From contig NC_086097.1 in the NCBI RefSeq assembly GCF_963921235.1, positions 138,510,001 to 138,574,000 on the forward strand: a stretch of DNA of 64,000 bases, read 5' to 3'. The position numbers were made by a program, and so were the translations under genes. The DNA comes from Mobula hypostoma. Lineage: Eukaryota. The notes below the pieces were generated by a model. It was not told where the DNA came from. It was given only the letters and a program-made list of their open reading frames with translations, and ran no database searches. Below are positions 329 to 60,682 of this stretch, in pieces; within the stretch, counting starts at the first letter, position 1; every line of letters begins with the position of its first letter.

Positions 329-1644
329 TAAATAGTCCAGCTTTTTAATTAACAAACTGCTCGCTTTCCTCATTGCTTCATGTTAACTTTAAATTGTCCA
401 TATATGAAAATACACAAGCCCCTCTGAACGAAATGCTTCAATTGCTCATTTAAAAAAAAACACTTTTCTTGTTTCTTTCACTGAAGTGTATGACCTTGCA
501 TTCTTCCCCATGGTATTGCACCTGACATGCCCCCAGCCATGCACTTAGCCTAATTTTAACTCCTGAAGCCTTATTGTACTCTGCATCCATCTTGTATGGA
601 TGTCCATCTATGAATCATGAGCAAACTTGGACAGATTATAGTTGACACCCTTTTCAATAGTGGCATGCAAAAGTTTGGGCACCTGTGGTCAAAATTTCTG
701 TTACTGTGAATAGTTAAGTGAGTAGAATATGAACTGATCTCCAAAAGTCATAAAGTTAAAGATGAAACATTCTTTTCAACATTGTAAGCAAGATTAGTGC
801 ATTATTTTTGTTTTGTACAATTTTAGAGTGAAAGAAAGGAAAGGGGCACCCCAAGAGATTTGAGCTCTCAGGTAACTTTTACCAAGGTCTCAAGACCTTA
901 ATTAGCTTGTTAGGGCTATGGCTTGTTCACAGTCATCGTTAGGAAAGGCCAGGTGATGCAAATTTTAGAGCTTTATAAATACCCTGACTCCTCAAACAAT
1001 CAGCAGCCATGGGCTCCTCTAAGCAGCTGCCTAGCACTCTGAAAATTAAAATAAATGATGCCCACAAAGCAGGAGAAGGCTATAAGAAGATAACAAAGCG
1101 TTTTCAGGTAGCCGTTTCCTCAGTTCGTAATGTAATTAAGAAATGGCAGTTAACAGGAATGGTGGAGGTCAAGTTGAGGTCTGGAAGACCAGGAAAACTT
1201 TCCGAGAGAACTGCTGGTAGGGTTGCTAGAAGGGCAAATCAAAACCCCCGTTTGACTGCAAAAGACCTTCAGGAAGATTTAGCAGACTCTGGAGTGGTTC
1301 TCAGACACTGTTCTACTGTGCAGCGACACCTGCACAAATATGATCTTCATAGAAGTGTCATCAGAAGAAAACCTTTCCTGCGTCCTCACCACAAAATTCA
1401 GCATCAGAAATTAGCAAAGGAACATCTAAATAAGCCTGATGCATTTTGGAAACAAGTAGTGTGGACTGATGAAGTTAAAATAGAACTTTCTGGCTGCAAT
1501 GAGCAAAGGTATGTTTGGAGAAAAAAGGGTGCAGTATTTCATGAAAAGAACACCTCTCCAACTGTTAAGCATGGGGGTGGGTCGATCATGCTTTGGGCTT
1601 GTGTTGCAGCCAGTGGCACGGGGAACATTTCACTGGTAGAGGGA

Positions 1645-4600
1645 GAGCCCTGCTGGCCGCTGATGGGGTAACATCTTTTTGAACTTGCTCCTACCTTATC
1701 TATCTTTTTGTTTCCTACCAGTTTTTTGAAACCTTATTATAAATCTCAATATTGCTCTGTTATGTCTTTGAGAAAGACTAAAGCCTCTGGAAAAGAAAAA
1801 GATGATGATTCTCCAACCACTTTGGAATCAATTGGAGATTTCCTTAAAAAGCAAAGAACAGAACTTTCTGAGGAATTTAACCATCTTAAAGTCCAGTTGG
1901 ATACTATTCAACAAACTCTAATCGAACATGATAAGCGAATTAAGGAGAATTAATAAACTTTGTCGATACTGGAAGTGGACTTAGAAGACATGAGTAAGGT
2001 CTGCAAAAATTACCATTATCTAATGAAAAATTAACAAAGCAGATTACCAAGCTGGAAAGCAGAAGCAGAAGAACAACCTACGTATTCTGGGTCTTGAAGG
2101 ATGAATTGAAGGTGCCCACCCCACGGAGTTCTTTGCAAGTTTTCTGAAGCAGCTATTCCCTGATTTATTGCCATCTGTGCCCAAGTTGGACTGCGCCCAC
2201 CGGTCACTGGACCCGAAACCAAAGTCGGGGGGAGCAACCTAGGTCGGTTATCTTATGTTTTCATGAATTTCATTTAAGGAGCTTTTAATCCGTCATACCT
2301 GTCGAGTAGGAATGATCGATTACAACATGAAGATGATCAGGTTCGTGGAAGATTATACACCGGAGGTTATGGCTGAATGTGCCAAGTATGAAGAGGTTAT
2401 GTCACTGTTTTATAACAAAGGGTTGAAGCCCTCCCTTTGCTTCCCCGCACGTCTTAGAATCGTTCAGCAGAATAGTTTGCAGAAATGGCTTGGATCGTTT
2501 GAACACGTATAGAAGTTTTTGAACGTAGAAGATTAATTGCATTATGTCTCTTACAAGAACAATTATCTTTTTAATGTTGGATAGAATAAGATTTTAATAA
2601 ACTTACATTTTGACCATTTATATATCTTTCTTTTTGATATTTTCTTTGATTTTTTTTACTTTACTCTTTTTTGAGGTTTTTCTATATATATATATATAGT
2701 TTTGAAATTGTTAAAATGAATCCTCTTATGTTTTGGATTTCTGATCTAAGTTTATTTTGTCTGTTTTCTCTTGGTAGGAACATAATAACCTTGAATGATT
2801 GGAGTTTTGCCAGCAAGATTTCTTTGGGAGGGTTGTCTTTAGGGTTTGGGAGGGGGAGGGGGTGGGGTTTCTTTTTTCTCTGGAAGCTGGGTTGGGCTAC
2901 CATCCAAATTTTCTGTTTGAGTACCTTGTTTTATGGTTCGTTCTCTGGTTCTAATAATTTATGGTCAAATCTTTTAACTCTTTTAATTAGTATTTAAAAT
3001 GGATTGAAATATTAATTTACTTAGTTTTAATGTGAAAGGGTTAAATCATCCTGTGAAACGGAATAAGATTTTTGCTTATATTAAAAAGTTAAGGGCCCCC
3101 ATTATTTTCCTACAAGAAACACCTAGAAACCATAGAAAAACTACAGCACAGAAACAGGCCTTTTGGCCCTTCTTGGATGTGCCGAACCATTTTCTGCCTA
3201 GTCCCACTGACCTGCACATGGACCATATCCCTCCATACACCTCCCATCCATATATCTGTCCAATTTATTAATGTACATAGTTGTGACAACGCACGCCGTT
3301 TTAATTGGTGGAGGGGTTTACAATTTCATTCTTCATTCAGAGCAAAATCTCGAGGGGTCTCGATTTTTATAGACAATACAATTTATTTTGTTCAACATAA
3401 AGTTGTCTCTGACCCTAATGGGCGATTTGTCATAGTGTCAAGGAAACTAGATAATAAATTAGTTGTATTTACTTATGTGGATGATCCAGGATTTTTTGAA
3501 TGTTTCTTTTCATTCGTGCCAGATTTGAGTCTTTGTTCTTTAGTGATGGGAGAAGATTTTAATTGTTGTCTAGACTCAGTATTAGATCATTCTTCTCCTA
3601 AATCAGCCACACATAATAAATCAGCTTTATTTATTCAATCCTTTCTAATGAAATGTGATATTGTTGATGTCTGGCATTTTTTTTCACCTGGCAGAAAGGG
3701 AGTATTCATTCTTCTCTCATGTCCATCATTCCTATATCAGGATTGATTTTTTTTTATTGATAGTCAAATGATTCCATTAGTTCGATCCATTGAATATAAA
3801 GAAATAGCTGTATCTGACCATTCTCCTGTATTTCTATCTTTAAATCTTCCTGGTTTCACTCATATGAACAGATCCTGGCATTTTAATTTAACCTTGTTAT
3901 CTGATAAGGACTTCCTAAAATTTCTGGAGAATCAAATTACTCCTTTTTGAAGAAAATGCGTTGGACGAGACTTCTAGTCTCATCATTTGGGACACTTTTA
4001 AGGCATATATTAGAGGACAGATTATCTCCTATACTGCATATATTAAGAAAAAAACTAATAAAGAGAGAACTGACTTAGTTAATCAATTAAAACAATTGGA
4101 CCAGAAATATGCTTTGGCACCAGACCCTGAACTAAACAAAAGATGTATTGAAATTAAAACTAAATATAAACTTCTAATAACATATCCAATTGAAAGCCAA
4201 CTTTTAAAAGATAGAAGCCAATTCTATATACCTGGAGAAAAAACTGGTAAACTATTGGCTAATCAGTTGAAGACATTTATAGCTAAACGGCAAATTAAGA
4301 AATTCGCAAAACCAATGGTGATTTGATAACTGACCATTTTGAAATAAATGACACTTCTAGAGAATTTTATTCTAAACTGTATAGTTTTGATTTTGTTAAA
4401 GATAATACAGCAATGAACAATTTTTTAGACCAATTAAATATTCCTGGGCTTTCGTTTGATAATTGAAAGCAGTTGGATCAACCTGTTCCTCAGGAGGAAA
4501 TTACTGAGGCTATATGTTCATTGCATTCTGGGAAATCTCCAGGACCTGACGGATTCTCTGGAGAATTTTATAAGGCTTTTTCTTCATTGCTTATACCTTA

Positions 4601-29888: not shown

Positions 29889-32800
29889 TCAGGCATTATC
29901 AGTTTTTAAAAAGCACAAAACTTTTACAGGATAACAAATGAAGAAACAATTTGTTTAAAATTATCGGTGTCTGAAGCTGCCAAGTTTCTGTCATTATTAA
30001 AGTTGGTAGAAAAACTGTTATGTTTTGTAACTTGAACTAATTGTAAGAAAAATGAGAACTTGTCTACTTAGTTTTTCTTTAGTGCAGCACTCACATATGA
30101 CATGGTGGTGTAATGATATATACCATTCACATACTACTTACATTTAACCCGTAATAAATTATGTGAACAAATAAAAAAATTAAACAATACGTTTACAACA
30201 TTACTCAAATATTACTAAACTATATAGGCACACATACATATGTGCGTGCACATACGGTATACTATATAATACAATGACTAAATAAACATCCACCACATAG
30301 TAAATTTTGAATTGTCATATTCACGCCTAAAGATTTAATCTCTGTGGAGGATTTCTTACTCTTGTGGGATAATGTCTTTCCTGACAAGGTGGGTTACTGC
30401 TTGGCAGGTGAGACTAGTGGCTATGAAACAATCTTAGGTTCTGGGGCCTCCTTGGAAGTGGTTGTAGGAATTGGCTCTGGGACTGCAGGAAGTTAGCTCT
30501 GACTAACCTTCTTCTAACAATTGATTCTGCTGTCTTTATCTGATTGCACCTGATGCCATCTGGATATGATGTATCAATCTCCACTGTGTAAGAGAGTGGT
30601 CCAGTTCTGTCCTTAATCTTTCCAAGTACCCACTTTTGATTGCCTGTAGTCCCTCACCAGGTCTACTTGTCCAGGAGTGAAACATCGAACCTCCTTGTTT
30701 GAGGAGCCCTCAATTTGACTCCGCTGTTTGTCCTGTATACTCCTGAGACTGGGTTTGAGGAAATTGAAGTGTGAGCACAAAGGATGACCCAGGAACAGCA
30801 TAGCAGGTGAATTGTTGGTTGTGAAGTATGCTGCATTGCAATATGTAAGGAGTAAATTGGCAAGCTGATTCAGTGTCAGTGTAGTGTGTTCTGTTGACAT
30901 TACTCATGTTCTCTAGACTCGGACAAACCTTTCCATTAAGCTATTTGTAGTTGGGTGGTACAGTGCAGATGTAATGTCTTGTTCCATTCATTTTCAGGAA
31001 TGAATGAAACTCTTCCACAACAAACTGTGATCCATTCTCACTGAATAAGTGTTCTCGAATACCATTCCTTGAGAAGAGACTCCTCAACACATCAACAGTG
31101 TGTGAGGCTGTAGTGGAAACTATTTGGAATACTTCTGGCCACTTTGCAGCTGGATCCACTACTGCCAAGACATTTGTGCCCATGGATAGTCTGGCAAAAT
31201 GCACATGAAGCTAATGCCAGGACAATGCAGGCCTTTCCCAGGGATGGAGAGAGGTGGTGTTCTTGGCATCTTCTGGACATGTTGACATCCCAAATAGTGC
31301 ATGGCAAGCTGCTCGATCTGCTGACCTATCTCAGGCCACCAGACAAATCTTCAAGCCAACACTTTAATTTGGGCCATGCTTAGAGGACTGGCATGTAGCT
31401 CCTGCAGTTAGCCCTCAGCTTGGATGGTACAACAATTTGCAATCCTCACATAAGGCAACCCCTGTCAAGGCCAAGTTCATCCCGGCACTGGTAAAGTAGG
31501 GGAACTGGAATTCCTGCTGCATATTCCAGCCACTTTGGGTTGCCATGTAGACCTGAGACAGTGTTGGGGTCTTTTCTGGTTTTCCTTTGGATCATCTCTG
31601 CGTAATAGGGAGACTTTTGTTTTGCATTAGGGAAAATAAGTCAGGAGGAGTGCCCTCTTTTGTCAACTTTCCAGGTATCTCCTTTTCTAAGGACGAACTG
31701 GATAATCCACCAGCATTTCCATGATTAGTGTAGTTCTTGAATTTGATCTTGTAATTGTGTCCTCCAAGAAAAAGGCCCAGCTCTGCATAAGTGCTGCTGC
31801 TGCTAGTGGAACACTCTTCTGTGGGTTGAAAACTGACAGCAGTGGTTGATGATCAGTAATGAAGTAAACTGCCTCCCATACAAGTACTAGTTGAAATGGT
31901 TTACACCAAACCAGACTCAAGGCCTCTCTGTCAATCTGTTTGTAATTTTTCTTTACAACTGTAGGGGAACACGATGCAAAGGCTTTGGGGTGTTCACTTC
32001 CATCACTCATAACAGGTGGTATGACTGTACCAACACCATAAGGTGAGATATCACAGGCGAACTTCATTGGATGATGTGTTAGAACAGTGTTGGACCTCAT
32101 CGTTTCCTTTACCTTTTGGAAAGCCACCTCACAGTGCTTTGTCCATTGCCATTTCTTCCCAATCTGTAATGATGAGTTCAAGGGGTGGAGCACAGTAGCC
32201 AGGTTTGGCAGGAACCTATTATTGTAATTGACAAATCCTAAAAAGGACCGCAGCTATGAGACTTCCTTTGGGCGTGGGGCATCCACCACTGCTTGAATTT
32301 ACTTAGCATACTTGTGTAATCCTTGTGCATCAATCGTGTGACCACAGTAAGTGATACTGGTCAAACTTAAAAGCGAAGTATGCATTTAAACCCAATGCAC
32401 TCAGCAAAGCTGGAATTTGTTTCTCATTTGCTTCAAAATACTACTCAGATGCATTCAAATGTACGAAAGATAACTGGTTGATGCATGTATCTTTCCCACG
32501 TAGCCAGCCATTTCTGCTTTTTTTTAACTTGAACCTCTCCCCTTCTGAAGAGAAGCATGCTGCATTTTTTTTTTAAAACACTCTCCCCTTCTTAAAAGTA
32601 AAGTGTGTTGGGCTTCCTAAGGCAAATAGTTGTCTTAGGTTCATTTTCAAACTTCCTCTCCACCACTATGATGCTTTGTAACTCCTAGAAACGAATTGAA
32701 AGAAAAACAGAGGAGCCGGGAGAAATTGGCTACCTAGTTCTTTTTAGTGAGGCACTCACATATGACACGGTGACGTAATGATGTATGTCTTTCACGTACC

Positions 32801-54846: not shown

Positions 54847-55746
54847 CATCACCATCATCATCATCAGATCATCAGGTGCCATGCCCAGTTTGAGCTTTGA
54901 CTGCCATGGCCCACACACTCCTGTTTCGGGTCAAGTGGTTCAATTCATTGGTATTCATTTCCAGTTCTCTGGCTGCTGTCTCCATCATCATTTGTCTTTG
55001 TCTTCCTCTTGCTTTCTTCCCTTCAATCTTTCCCATAATTACCATGCATTCTAACTCCTCTTTCCTAATCACATGTCCAATGAAGTTATGTTGCCTTTTC
55101 GTGATCACATACATTATTTCTCTTTTTCTGTTTGCTCTGTTCATGACATCCTCGTTAGATATTAATTTTGTCCATGATAATCTTTGCATCCTCCTCAAAA
55201 ACCACATCTCTGCTGCTACAATTCGTTTCCTCATGTTACTAGATATTGTCCAGCATTCTGAGCCATATAACATAACTGGATAAACGTAACATTTCAGTAC
55301 TCTGAGGCAGGTTGTCATGCCTAGTTTAGTATTGGTCAGTATACTCTTCATTCTCGTGAAGGTGTCTTTTGCCATCCCTATTCTTCTTTTGATGTCCAAG
55401 TTGCACCTGCCATCTGATGTCACCCAGCTTCCTAAGTAGCAAAAGTTCTGTACTTGTTTTATGTCTTCCCCGTTTATTCTCAGCCTGCAGATAGGATTCT
55501 CCTTCTTTTTTGGATATCACTATACATTCTGTCTTTTTACAATTGATAGATAGACCCATTTTTGCGCTTTCTTCAACAATTATATCAATTAAGTTTTGTA
55601 GTTCTTCCTCCGTACTTGCAATTAACACAGTGTCATCTGCATATCTGAAATTATTGATGTTTTCACTGCCAACTTTGATTCCCAAGATGAAACAATATTA
55701 CAAAAATTAAGAAACATCTTGGGAATCAAAGTTAGCGGTGAAAACA
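54847..55746 (-). mobile_element. 5'-truncated RTE LINE with an inverted 5' segment
   Basis: NNFRYADDTVL, YGSECWT; (GAT)n tail at the left; 12-bp TSD tcaacagtgtat at 54835-54846 and 55747-55758; same family as 12842-14460. Confidence 0.92.
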
Positions 55747-56424
55747 TCAACAGTGTATATGATACTAATAAATACAAGAGTAAATATAGTGAAGAGCACA
55801 AAATACCAGAATAGTACAAAGTAATTAGTAACATTGTTCAAACTCGGTGCTCCAAGAGTCATAGTTTCATATACTATGTAACTGGGCCCTTCAACCTTGC
55901 ACATTCATGCCAACGTTTTTGCCCATCTTCACTAATCCTATTTGGTCTTTGACCTTTCTTGTCTTGGCTATTTAAGTGTCATAGAAACATATAAAACCTA
56001 TGGCATAATACAGACCCTTTGGCCACAAAGCATGTCTTTACCTTAGAACTACCTAGGCTTACCCATAGCCCTCTATTTTTCTAAGCCCGTGTACCTATCC
56101 AGGAGTCTCTTGAAAGACCCTATTGTTTCTGATTCCACCGCCGCGAGCAGCCCATTACACACACTCACCACTCTCTGGGTAAAAAAAACTTAGCCCTGAC
56201 ATCTCCTCTGCACCTACTTCCAAGCAGCTTAAAACTATGCCCTCTTGTACTAGCCATTTCAGCCCTGGGAAAAAGCCTCTGACTGTCCGCATGATCAATG
56301 TCTCTCATTATATTGTACACCTCTATCAGGTCACCTCTCATCCTCCATCGCTCCAAGAAGAAAAGGCCGAGTTCACTCAACCTGTTCTCATAAGGCATGC
56401 TCCCCAATCCAGGCAACATCCTTG

Positions 56425-59400
56425 TTTAGCCCCCCGGCCAGCCTCAGGGTCACTCGGCTCGCTGTCGTCTAGGGAAATAGCCCTCGGCCCCACCAAACTG
56501 GGTAATAGTTTGTGTGGATGCTGTGTGATGTACCCCACCCTGCCCAAATAACAGACAATACACCAGATACAAGTAAATGATTTACAGTTTATAGATATTA
56601 CTGGGACTATATAATTAATAGAGAATAAAATATAAAAGGAAAATAAAAGGTGCCACACTTATCAAAGTTCAATCTCTTCGTGCACAAAAAAGTTGGAGTT
56701 CAGGACCCTTCTTCTTCACCCTGCAACCCCTCGGACCGCCTCGACCAGCCACCTGGGGCCAACAATGGTGGTCGACCAGACGCTCCACACAAGTCCGTCT
56801 CCGTCTCCCCTCCTCGCCGAACGCCCCGCTTGGGGTCCGACCCCGTTAGCGGACTCACAGCACCTGGTCTATTCTCTGTCTCTCTCACTCGCCTTCTGCC
56901 CCAAAACCCCGCGCATACAGTATCTTCAAATACACCAAAAACATAACAACTATCCCAATTGGTTCATTCGTCCTCATATCAATAGATAATACAAAACAAA
57001 CTGCTAGCGGGAAGGACTTTCTCAGTGTTTAATATAACAAAGAAGCATTCCAAAGTATAACATAACAAAGAAGCCATTTTAATTAGCCTACACAGTAACA
57101 TAAAAGACGAAACCCCCTTACACTCTCCCCCCACCAAATAAAGTCATGTCCTCATGACTTATAAATAACTCGCCAACCAGTCCTGCAGACACACAACACA
57201 CACATACACAGATACACACAGTGACAGTGCTCCCCAAACAGTGGACCTTACGCCCGTCCCATGGGCGCTACATAGGCCAACCTATCTGGGAGCTTCTTAA
57301 CCCTCCGAGACCTCCGTACCCCCTCACCTAAACCCAAAGGGCTCAGACACTACTAGGGATACCTCAGGCCTGCTTGCCAACTCCTCTCTCACATTACAGC
57401 TCGGAGCCCCCTGTCCTGTGTCCGGGGCCCTGCTTCTTTTCCGTCCTGATCCTACCGTAACTCAGACTGTCCACAGCTAGCCCTCCCCACTACACCTGAC
57501 TCAGTGGGAGAAGGGCCAAAGGTCTCTTCCTCAATCACGGGGAAGTTAGTGAAAGGCAGCATGTACCACATGTGCAGCACATCATCCTTTGAATCCGTAT
57601 TCTTCCTCATTCCCTCGATCGGTAGCCGCTGTTTAAGTTTCTCCAAACTGAAACATTTAGCTGAGGCTACCCCTTCAGCCTCCTGCAGCCGAGACGTCAG
57701 CTTCTTCGGGGACTCCTTCAACTCTTGCCACAGCCTCAGCAGGTCGGACTCGGAGTTCTTGGCCATCTCAATCTGGGACGCAGTTACCCCACCAGCTTCT
57801 TCCACCCTGACCTGAAAAGCAGCAGTTAAAGAATGTTCAGCCTCCAGTTTTCCCTCCTTGATGACGTCTTCCAGGTCAACTTTCAGTTTTTCCGGTTAAT
57901 TTAAACTCGCGATAGTCATCTTCAGGTTCCGTTCAAGCGTCCACCTCCCTTTTCCGAGATCTGTCCTCCATTTCTTAACCTTCTCGGGAGTGTAGTCAAA
58001 CTCCCCTCCCTGGGCTCTCAGTTTTCTGTTGGCCTTAGTCAGAACACTTCCTTCCCCAAGTTGTAAGTCTTCCAATCTTTTCTGAATCGACGTCTTGAGT
58101 TTCTGCTGATCCCTTCAAAGGTGAGTCATTGTTTCTTCTCGCTGGATTAATTCATCAGTACATGACCGCAGTGTCGGCTCGGAATTCCGTTGTTCCATCT
58201 CCACGTTGACGAGCGTGAATTCCAAGTCTGCATGGTCGTCCCACAAGTGCAGCACTCAGTCTCCGGCCGGCATTTCTGAGCACTCAGTTCAGCGGTGCAA
58301 ATCCCCTCTCTCCCCTGTGTCTCATTCAGATTGACGACCTGGATTTCCATCCCCAGGTCCACCACCGTCGGTTCCAACACCAGGAAGTTCAACTGGTATG
58401 TCAGGTCATTTTTCTCACACTGCACCAAACTCCTCCGGCCAAAAACTCCTCCACATTTGACACTTCTTCACATTTGACACTTCGCTTCTGTCGCCCGGGC
58501 TCAGCCACTCGCCTGGCTTCATAGTCCCCCCAGGCGAATCCAAGCTCTAGGTGGTCATCCACATAGACCAAAACTCCACACACCTTCACTTCCCCCATGC
58601 TCTTTCTCATGCCTTGCGGGAAGGATGCAGGGGCTCTGGATATGCCCTTGGGCATCTTTTCGGATTGGAAGAATCCTAGGGAACTAGTAACGTCCATCTT
58701 CAGCTTGACAGCCACACTCCTTGGGATCTGGCAACATCCACTCCTCAGATCTAGCACATTAAATCACGTCACATAATCCACACACACGCTGCCTCCATCT
58801 TCCCCGGCGCCAGGGTCCAGTTGCCATGACCTCTCTCTCACTGAGGTGTCTTCAGCGGTCAACTCCCCTCCCTCGTGGTAGTTGGGAGCATCTACTAAGA
58901 GGGTCTCACCCTCAGCTACTTTCCCCAAGCCGTACCACCGCTGGGTCTCACTTAAATTCAGTACCAGCTCAAGGCTGCTACACACGTCCTCAGAAGCAAC
59001 TCGACACGCTGGGTGCCCAGACAATGCCCCCATGAACTCCAGAGTCATTAACCAATCATCGTCCTCTGGATAACTACTGGCACTGGTACCCAAAATCTCC
59101 AGTGCCCTTGCGGTTATCAAGGGTAAATGCTTCAGACACCGGTTGTAAAACGAACTGTACAACAACTTGACCTGCGCCGTGGCGTCGAGGATGGCTTTAG
59201 CATCGCTTCCCTCTAAACCTTCAGGAATAGGGTCTTTTCCTTGCGGAAGTTCATTGGTACGTTGCTAGGAACGTGCTTCCCCAGAGACCCCAAGCCATTC
59301 CCCCACTGGGCCTCCACTAAGTTTCCCGACACCTCTCTGATCAGCTGAACAACTGAAGGACCCCCTGAAATGATCCCCCGGCCTTGCAAGCAATTTAGCT

Positions 59401-60605
59401 GCCCTCTTAGAGAAGACGCACTGAAAACTTTCCCCCCTCTTTCAAATAACTGACAGCTGTCACTATGGTGTAAGTGAACCTGACAGCTCTAACATCGTCA
59501 CCAGCCCGCCTACTCAAAATTTCAACCACTCCCTGTCGCTCTCCCTCAACCGAGCACTGCCACTCATCTAACAACTGAGAGATCGCTGCGCCCACACCTT
59601 GCACGCCTCCACCCCTCTTGGGGTGGACACTATCCCAAACGCCAGGCAGAGCCTGCCAGAGCTAGAACATTTATTCGCACACACTACCTCCAAATCAGAC
59701 CACTCTTTCCTCTCTCTCCCAACAGCATAGACAGCCCCGAGTTCCACCTCCAACTCGTCAATGCTAGTCTGAATTCGAACAAAGACCTCACCCACCACGC
59801 ATGCAGCAATAACCAGCAAATAACCCACAGAGACACACATTACAGATTTAAACAGGGCACCCACACAGTATACCAGTAGACCCAATCCCAGACAAAAACC
59901 CCCACAATGTAGCCCCCCTGGCCAGCCTCAGGGTCGCTCGGCTTGCTGTCGTCTAGGGAAACAGCCCTTGGCCCCGCCAAACTGGGTAATAGTTTGTGTG
60001 GATGCTGTGTGATGTACCCCACCCCGCCCAAATAACAGACAATACACCAGATACAAGTAAATGATTTACAGTTTATAGATATTACTGGGACTATATAATT
60101 AATAGAGAATAAAATATAAAAGGAAAATAAAAGGCGCCACACTTATCAAAGTTCAATCTCTTCGTGCACAAAAAAGTTGGCGCTCAGGACCCTTCTACTT
60201 CACCCTGCGACCCCTCGGACCGCTTCGACCGGCTGCCTGGGACCAACACGGTGGTCGACCAGGCGCTCCACACGAGTCTGTCTCCGTCTCCCCTCCTCGC
60301 CGAACGCCCCGCTCGGGGTCCAACCCCGTTAGCGGACTCACAGCACCTGGTCCATTCTCTGTCTCTCTCTCCTGCCTTCTGCCCCAAAACCCCACGCATA
60401 CAGTATCTTCAAATACACCAAAAACATAACAACTATCCCAATTGGTTCATTCATCCTCATATCATTAGATAATACAAAACAAACTGCTAGCAGGAAGGGC
60501 TTTCTCAGCATTTAACATAACAAAGAAACATTCCTTAGTATAACATAACAAAGAAGCCATTTTAATTAGCCTACACAGTAACATAAAAGATGAAACCCCC
60601 TTACA
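56425..60605 (-). mobile_element. Non-autonomous Gypsy-type LTR retrotransposon; 5' LTR 59908-60605, 3' LTR 56425-57122
   Basis: Two 698-bp LTRs with about 40 differences by hand count; TSD CTTG; PPT ggtggggggagag; degenerate tRNA-Pro-like PBS tgggggtttttgtctgggatt; decayed gag, protease (ILDATAQV) and RT (LDLRSG..MPKGI..APASF..YVDD). Confidence 0.93.
57614..58490 (-). pseudogene. Captured intron-less fragment of class II (sarcomeric, MYH16-like) myosin heavy chain rod inside the LTR element
   Basis: Hand translation gives [101 protein letters not shown]. These are in the same order as myosin S2/LMM motifs. Confidence 0.85.
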
Positions 60606-60682
60606 CTTGTAAATCTCCTCTGCACTCCTTCTATGGTTTCCACGTCCTTCCTGTAGTGAGGCGACCAGAATTGACCACAGTA

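What the first reader, a model, noticed from the sequence alone, without database searches (positions are those of the whole stretch)
56425..60605. LTR retrotransposon that has captured a myosin heavy-chain mRNA in place of most of pol
Seen: on the minus strand the element runs 5' LTR, PBS, decayed gag/protease, RT up to YVDD, then about 880 bp (58490 to 57614) translating as ordered myosin-II rod motifs (EKNDL, DLEFTL, LEDLQ, LTKAN.KL, LKMTI..LN..E..K.DLE.V.K, EEAGG...QIE, KKL..RLQEAE, SLEK.KQRL). A Gypsy pol C-terminal remnant (RRSRRVKKLPDRLAY), PPT and 3' LTR follow. Known: in vertebrate MYH genes this stretch spans several exons, and no introns are present here. Inference: spliced mRNA was transduced by RT template switching, replacing RNase H and integrase, analogous to oncogene capture by acutely transforming retroviruses. 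The LKMTI/DLE.V.K motif looks closest to the MYH16 lineage, from memory.
Basis: partly seen in the sequence, partly recalled or inferred. Interest (0 to 1): 0.9.

Follow-up and report, generated by a model that had tools for sequence, protein, structure and literature searches.

The report
Ray retrotransposon carrying in-frame myosin piece
This is one decayed copy of an abundant, crippled jumping gene of rays that long ago picked up an intron-free piece of a muscle myosin gene and has since kept it inside an unbroken protein reading frame, which suggests these defective elements must still be translated in order to spread.

Summary
Confirmed, with corrections. The element (60605-56425, minus strand; 698-bp LTRs, 4-bp target duplication) is one copy of a multi-copy non-autonomous Gypsy family. 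Its myosin piece is 58363-57613; 'EKNDL' is RNase H, not myosin. The donor is a second MYH16-clade host gene (C68:14.52-14.71 Mb; 87-93% to the least-deleted copies, 62-71% for other paralogues). Four exon-exon junctions are joined across the copies, two in this one. Both switch points show 10-of-11 and 10-of-12-base microhomology. Myosin did not replace RNase H or integrase: it replaced about 55 bases of linker in an element already carrying an integrase deletion. Across 30 copies no stop is shared by a majority over 653 pol-frame codons (7-14 expected), yet the myosin residues drift (net dN/dS 0.8). Hypanus holds a sister lineage with 729-residue frames at three loci, so the capture probably predates the stingray/devil-ray split. 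Best reading: template-switch capture, then selection for an open frame rather than for myosin function.

The parts
60606..60609 (-). 5' target-site duplication CAAG, inside a LINE
   Evidence: empty-site joints 56420-60606 in all 4 runs laid
59908..60605 (-). 5' LTR, 698 bp, TG...CA
   Evidence: 39 differences to the 3' LTR over 697 columns, K2P 0.059
59885..59904 (-). Degenerate primer-binding site (tRNA-Pro type; the type is recalled, from no call)
   Evidence: variants across copies
59218..59880 (-). gag remnant (PNMA-like); frame without a majority stop over 235 codons in the family, broken in this copy
   Evidence: weak PNMA hit on the Hypanus relative, E 0.004, below cut-off
59321..59327 (-). 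GGGAAAC heptamer where gag and pol frames overlap; likely -1 frameshift site (function inferred)
   Evidence: present in 17 of the 21 copies with letters among the 8 commonest variants listed
59034..59384 (-). protease-region remnant
   Evidence: tblastn to P0125 residues 436-563, E 5e-17
58491..58784 (-). RT remnant with YVDD at 58565-58554
   Evidence: tblastn to P0125 898-995, E 1e-17; RVT_1 E 0.0045, below cut-off
58364..58445 (-).
57613..58363 (-). Captured spliced mRNA of the MYH16-clade gene at C68:14.52-14.71 Mb (rod residues about 914-1418, MYH16 numbering, with four internal deletions)
57772..57773 (-). Exon-exon junction (donor exons at C68:14663723 and 14666491)
57707..57708 (-). 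Exon-exon junction (donor exons near C68:14683100 and 14707345), just after the large microhomology jump
57395..57612 (-). pol tail in frame with the myosin; opens with the junction of the integrase deletion
57272..57316 (-). RRSRRVKKLPDRLAY pol-end remnant, beyond the family's shared stop near 57392
57123..57132 (-). Polypurine tract
56425..57122 (-). 3' LTR, 698 bp
56421..56424 (-). 3' target-site duplication CAAG

Best explanation
A non-autonomous Gypsy LTR retrotransposon that had already lost its integrase was reverse-transcribed in a particle that also held spliced mRNA of an MYH16-clade gene. RT switched onto the mRNA and back at short GA-rich similarities, swapping about 55 bases of the RNase H-integrase linker for myosin rod sequence, in frame at both ends (shown: junctions, donor, splicing, frame; inferred: particle co-packaging). 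The chimera kept LTRs, PBS and PPT, and was copied in trans by integrase-bearing relatives (relatives shown; trans action inferred). It split into deletion subfamilies, one shared with Hypanus. Its long frame stayed open through many deletions while the residues drifted, so what is selected is translation through the frame (a cis-acting fusion protein as in IAP 1-delta-1, or escape from nonsense-mediated decay), with myosin as largely neutral filler (inferred). This copy is dead.
For: Donor 87-93% vs 62-71% for four other paralogue loci. A 236-bp stretch maps to three donor exons up to 36 kb apart, GT/AG-flanked; captured exons span 182 kb. Microhomology 10 of 11 bases at the 5' and 10 of 12 at the 3' switch. 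Two integrase-bearing relatives show the 1,493-bp deletion whose junction sits at the myosin's 3' border; 10 of 40 scored places are myosin-free siblings spanning it. 39 of 39 other scored places match the myosin region at 91-93%, of 870 candidates. No majority stop in 653 pol-frame codons of 30 copies vs 44 and 54 majority stops in the other two frames of the interior; 8-14 expected from the copies' own decay rate, 7-10 by permutation, P about 1e-3 to 1e-4. Net dN/dS of the myosin 0.79 (95% CI 0.46-1.51) against a within-subfamily baseline of 0.66; 6 prolines in 207 residues vs 0 in MYH16. Hypanus: three loci with colinear 729-residue frames, with other deletions; sister to this subfamily with 100% bootstrap.
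Against: Expression and translation are not shown. Four stops are shared by 6-8 of 28-30 copies; three are CGA in this copy and the fourth is Arg in the Mobula models, so recurrent CpG decay is likely, but stop-carrying sub-lineages are not excluded. Two of three long copies share a frameshift upstream of the myosin. Microhomology in Glu/Lys-rich codons favours in-frame deletions on its own. In Hypanus the myosin part varies less than the upstream part (10 of 119 vs 98 of 556 columns, Fisher p 0.013, columns not independent) and has no proline, which fits selection on the myosin. Only 3 long copies and about 450 donor sites were compared.
Confidence: 0.62

Rival explanations
1. Same capture, but the myosin rod matters: fused to the Gag/Pol remnant it supplies a coiled coil that helps the element's protein (and its RNA) join helper particles, at least in the Hypanus lineage.
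For: Retained in every sampled subfamily while much of pol was deleted; proline-free and least variable region in Hypanus; two of three deletions specific to this subfamily remove 7 and 35 residues, whole heptads (counted).
Against: Net dN/dS near baseline; 6 prolines and a 9-residue deletion in the Mobula-type subfamily; the large deletions are not whole heptads; myosin-free siblings also multiplied; heptad-sized deletions are expected from coiled-coil microhomology.
Confidence: 0.15
2. Same capture, pure passenger: neither the myosin nor the open frame is selected; the frame is open because microhomology favours in-frame deletions and few stops happened to arise.
For: No amino-acid constraint in protease, RT or myosin parts; shared frameshift in 2 of 3 long copies; minority-shared stops.
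Against: 7-14 stops expected on a branch with 14-16% change, none fixed; an independent lineage about 60% identical also has a full open frame at three loci; GGGAAAC and the gag frame are kept.
Confidence: 0.18
3. Different route of capture: the myosin directly replaced integrase, or came by read-through splicing from an element sitting in the myosin gene, or by later insertion of a processed pseudogene.
For: The 5' switch lies at the very start of a donor exon, as splicing would give; the donor and parent are similar enough at the 3' switch that the exact point is uncertain by a few bases.
Against: No splice donor at the parent's switch point; the 3' border has the parent's upstream-of-integrase bases, two non-synonymous differences from the donor, in 3 of 3 long copies; no poly(A) or own duplication; both ends lie inside coding sequence.
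Confidence: 0.05

Closest known systems
LTR-mediated retrocopies of animals (Tan et al. 2016, PMC5131818; seen: passages and section 5)
   Same: Partial spliced mRNA replaces part of an LTR element's frame, microsimilarity at switch points, no poly(A) or own duplication, further rounds as a non-autonomous element.
   Different: Their cases are young; in the section read, two had more than one insertion site. Here hundreds of candidate copies, several deletion subfamilies, two ray families, in-frame fusion kept open, and a template that had already lost integrase.
Mouse IAP 1-delta-1 (PMC6466679, passages; the primary paper Saito et al. 2008 was not held)
   Same: Non-autonomous LTR element whose deletion leaves an open gag-pol fusion frame that acts in cis and that out-transposes its helpers.
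   Different: No host mRNA in that frame; an endogenous retrovirus, not a Gypsy element; the cis effect was shown by experiment there and is only inferred here.
Maize Bs1 and human FAM8A1/HERV-K captures (as cited in PMC5131818, passage only)
   Same: LTR element carrying host gene sequence.
   Different: Other hosts and cargo; FAM8A1 copy described as an untranscribed processed pseudogene. I did not read the primary papers.
Oncogene capture by acutely transforming retroviruses (recalled)
   Same: Defective genome, spliced host insert fused to viral frame, helper-dependent.
   Different: No envelope seen, germ-line element, no evidence that the cargo's function is selected.

Membership tests
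Gypsy (Ty3/Metaviridae) LTR retrotransposon, non-autonomous | LTRs, target duplication, PBS, PPT | tested here: met
Gypsy (Ty3/Metaviridae) LTR retrotransposon, non-autonomous | Order protease-RT-RNase H-integrase in close relatives | tested here: met
   P0125 has RT, RNase H, rve in that order, 76% to the long copy's RT; integrase lies between RNase H end and tail in a relative in this genome
Gypsy (Ty3/Metaviridae) LTR retrotransposon, non-autonomous | Own enzymes defective, autonomous relatives present | tested here: met
   RT cut, integrase absent; 27 of the 30 best places for P0125 reach into integrase (residue 1534 or beyond)
Gypsy (Ty3/Metaviridae) LTR retrotransposon, non-autonomous | Mobilised in trans by those relatives | not testable with these tools
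   inferred from dispersed copies; helper LTRs not compared
LTR-mediated retrocopy (Tan et al. 2016) | Insert is spliced host mRNA | tested here: met
   four exon junctions with GT/AG flanks in the donor; donor exons for residues about 960-1075 were not located
LTR-mediated retrocopy (Tan et al. 2016) | Replaces element sequence, microsimilarity at switches, no poly(A) or own duplication | tested here: met
   about 55 bases replaced; 10/11 and 10/12 matches; no simulation of chance similarity was run
LTR-mediated retrocopy (Tan et al. 2016) | Co-transcribed with the element | tested here: inconclusive
   no run on record as RNA
MYH16 clade (donor gene) | Groups with MYH16 in a tree | tested here: met
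   99/98 support, 174 columns, long branch 0.31, unresolved within the clade
MYH16 clade (donor gene) | Shares MYH16-type intron positions | tested here: met
   residues 1107-1238 are three exons in the donor and in the C36 MYH16, one exon in four other paralogue loci
MYH16 clade (donor gene) | Is the one-to-one orthologue of tetrapod MYH16 | tested here: inconclusive
   the C36 gene is closer to tetrapod MYH16 (branch 0.13); synteny not examined
IAP 1-delta-1-like cis-acting fusion | Open fusion frame kept in the amplifying lineage | tested here: met
IAP 1-delta-1-like cis-acting fusion | Translation needed in cis for transposition | not testable with these tools
   experiment needed

The most novel reading that the evidence does not exclude
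A vertebrate retrotransposon has domesticated a piece of host muscle myosin: for 66 million years or more it has made a Gag-Pol-myosin rod fusion whose coiled coil helps it parasitise helper particles, still intact and selected in stingrays (Hypanus) and decaying in devil rays.
Probability: 0.15. Interest if true: 0.85.

Novelty: new variant of a known kind. Interest (0 to 1): 0.58.

Why it matters
Gene capture by LTR elements is known, but mostly as young, low-copy accidents. Here one capture founded a long-lived, abundant family in two ray families, and every step can be read: donor exons, both switch points, the integrase-less template, later deletions. Because the cargo is foreign and drifting, it is a clean marker for an open question: do defective LTR elements need their frame translated to spread, as shown for mouse IAP 1-delta-1? 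Myosin-free siblings and several subfamilies give natural controls. Practically, the family creates false gene models (labelled TMEM192 and GSTT2 isoforms) and points to a second, fast-evolving MYH16-type gene in rays that did not appear among 120 listed protein hits.

Tried and rejected
The C36 MYH16 gene was my first donor candidate; rejected at 62-76% identity. My own early reading that myosin replaced integrase was dropped. EKNDL as myosin: rejected. Search for copies keeping myosin residues 1178-1381: none; all 38 element places among 40 scored stop at base 62-74 of that exon, so the large jump arose at or soon after capture. Idea that the rare long subfamily is rare because it is frameshifted: 2 of 3 copies share a frameshift, the third lacks it; not supported. 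Pfam on the window's own myosin frame: no hit; only the longer copy hits Myosin_tail_1 (E 3.5e-6, below cut-off). Expression: no RNA holder listed; two runs guessed as RNA cover all 30 bins but may be DNA. Copy number: only first-look candidates (870, 2017, 357, 559; LTR 5456), not counts. No absolute date from LTR divergence, no calibrated rate at hand. No structure or complex job: a coiled-coil pass would come from likeness to myosin. Literature: myosin+Gypsy+retrotransposon+stingray gave 0 papers; two searches listed 1 and 2 papers, none on this by title or abstract start; repeat libraries (Repbase, Dfam) and subscription journals were not searchable.

Full report
Anatomy. On the minus strand the element runs from 60605 to 56425. 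The LTRs are 698 bp and 94.3% identical (K2P 0.059), flanked by a duplicated CAAG inside a LINE; contigs of all four runs laid join across the element as empty LINE sites. Inside lie a degenerate PBS, a gag remnant, GGGAAAC at 59327-59321, protease and RT remnants, an RNase H remnant (58445-58364), the myosin piece (58363-57613), the pol tail and a PPT. The rest of the window shows transposon-type frames and no host gene among 30 frames of 130 residues or more (read by eye). The genome is 3.48 Gb; the best protein hits are Mobula birostris (84%) and Hypanus sabinus (37%) models, so the host is taken to be a devil-ray-like myliobatiform (inference).

The myosin is real. The window frame hits an MYH7 rod construct in the PDB at E 1.2e-5 and teleost myosin-16-like proteins at E 4.5e-10. 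A less-deleted copy gives E 3.6e-48; of the 43 rows above the first MYH15 row, 32 are labelled myosin-16, 9 are unnamed and 2 'myosin-7-like'.

It is a family. The myosin region has 870 first-look candidates; all 39 other places scored match at 91-93% nearly end to end, and 29 of 29 other fetched loci cross both pol-myosin borders in one alignment. A rarer, longer subfamily (three copies read: L071-L073; about 6.1 kb; LTRs of L073 K2P 0.106) is about 77% identical to the window and keeps the RNase H end and more myosin. Seven places span its 5' junction. Candidate numbers are not copy numbers. Runs under four organism labels cover all 30 bins of the element.

Donor. The MYH16 gene on C36 gives only 62-76%. 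A second gene at C68:14.52-14.71 Mb gives 87-93% to the long copies, against 62-71% for C36, C40, C2 and the C68 fast cluster. It falls in the MYH16 clade with 99/98 support on a long branch and shares MYH16-type introns. A 236-bp stretch of L073 maps to three exons at 14615529, 14651245 and 14663721, each GT/AG-flanked and joined in the element; a fourth junction follows the large deletion. Two of the four survive in the window copy (57773/57772, 57708/57707). The captured exons span 182 kb of host DNA. Exons for residues about 960-1075 were not located.

Junctions. At the 5' switch parent and donor exon share 10 of 11 bases, at the first bases of the exon; 33 of 40 places found with the junction stop there, being myosin-free relatives. 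At the 3' switch they share 10 of 12. Two integrase-bearing relatives in this genome show a 1,493-bp integrase region (measured on one) bounded by a repeated GAGAGG; myosin-free siblings (10 of 40 places) have lost it at that repeat; and 3 of 3 long myosin copies carry, after the myosin, the bases from the upstream side of that deletion joined to the tail. So the mRNA replaced about 55 bases of linker in an element that already lacked integrase (or recombined with one). Later deletions also sit at microhomologies (RELEE/DELEE, 208 codons); none of 38 scored element places extends past that point.

Frame. In 30 copies of the window's subfamily the gag frame has no majority stop over 235 codons and the pol frame none over 653 codons from the heptamer to the tail, through protease, RT, RNase H and myosin, while the other two frames of the interior have 44 and 54 majority stops. 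Copies carry 0-5 stops each. With 14-16% group-level change since the long subfamily, 8-14 fixed stops are expected from the copies' own decay rate and 7-10 by permuting the observed spectrum (P about 1e-3 to 1e-4). Against this: four stops are shared by 6-8 copies (likely CGA hot spots), two of three long copies share a frameshift, and Glu-rich microhomology favours in-frame loss. Amino acids are not constrained: net dN/dS is 0.79 (0.46-1.51) for myosin, 0.65 for RT, 1.13 for protease, against within-subfamily values of 0.58-0.83; the Mobula-type myosin has 6 prolines in 207 residues, MYH16 none. The window copy is broken by five stops and private frameshifts, among them near 58483 and 58232.

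Second lineage and age. Hypanus has ten database members of one cluster; three loci encode colinear 729-residue gag-protease-RT-RNase H-myosin-tail frames, 93-97% identical, with deletions of their own (these are gene models, DNA not seen). On 476 columns this lineage is sister to the window's subfamily with 100% bootstrap, to the exclusion of the long copies (site count 48 vs 36, a modest margin). [quoted passage not shown] In Hypanus the myosin part is proline-free and less variable than upstream parts (p 0.013, non-independent columns), which keeps a functional coiled coil open as a minority reading.

Mechanism and comparison. Capture matches LTR-mediated retroposition (PMC5131818; passages and section 5). 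Integrase-bearing relatives that could act as helpers are common. Keeping an open but drifting frame resembles IAP 1-delta-1, whose gag-pol fusion acts in cis (PMC6466679, passages); escape from nonsense-mediated decay is an alternative (own inference). MYH16 is described as the ancient masticatory myosin, expressed in shark jaw muscle (PMC11050549, passages); how the donor's mRNA met the element in the germ line is unexplained. Searches listed no paper on this family; supplements were not read, and repeat libraries could not be searched.

Verdict. Real, well-resolved, a new variant of a known kind. The scan has reported this family three times on other DNA and three other capture families in this genome (unchecked notes). 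Interest 0.58.

Noticed in passing
G000:C68:14524968-14723916 (L076-L078, L088-L090, L092): A second, fast-evolving MYH16-clade gene with very long introns, about 0.6 Mb from the fast myosin cluster; no cartilaginous-fish protein was among the 120 rows listed. Its exons may be masked as repeats because of this family (guess).
   Followed up: partly
L091, L097 (G000:C18:78763790, C9:186070170): Myosin-free, integrase-less sibling family whose deletion is also in frame; a natural control.
   Followed up: partly
G000:C18:48745523, C50:30689110, C184:304888, C157:172388, C21:138691427, C12:196941089 (L041-L045, L052): Long intron-free matches to Myosin_tail_1 with stops: likely processed pseudogenes of non-muscle or smooth myosin; not checked for LTR flanks.
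   Followed up: no
P0002, P0247: RefSeq models named TMEM192 isoform X1 (Hypanus) and GSTT2 isoform X1 (Mobula) are this element's frame, not those proteins.
   Followed up: partly
L072 vs L091/L093: The full captured stretch, if ever contiguous (about 1.58 kb), would be close to the length lost with integrase (1.49 kb); no copy that long was found.
   Followed up: partly
window 31816-32361 (-): Unrelated decayed Gypsy RT/RNase H fragment (31% to P0125).
   Followed up: no
window 988-1671 (+): Tc1/mariner-like transposase frame, 227 codons (family named by eye).
   Followed up: no
window 55654-55750: 36-bp inverted repeat, 94% complementary, 25-base spacer.
   Followed up: no
same genome, earlier notes e1-7790638, e1-7790852, e1-8031028: Other LTR families said to carry SUDS3/RNF213, RBM25 and USP35 mRNA; amplified capture may be recurrent in ray genomes.
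   Followed up: no
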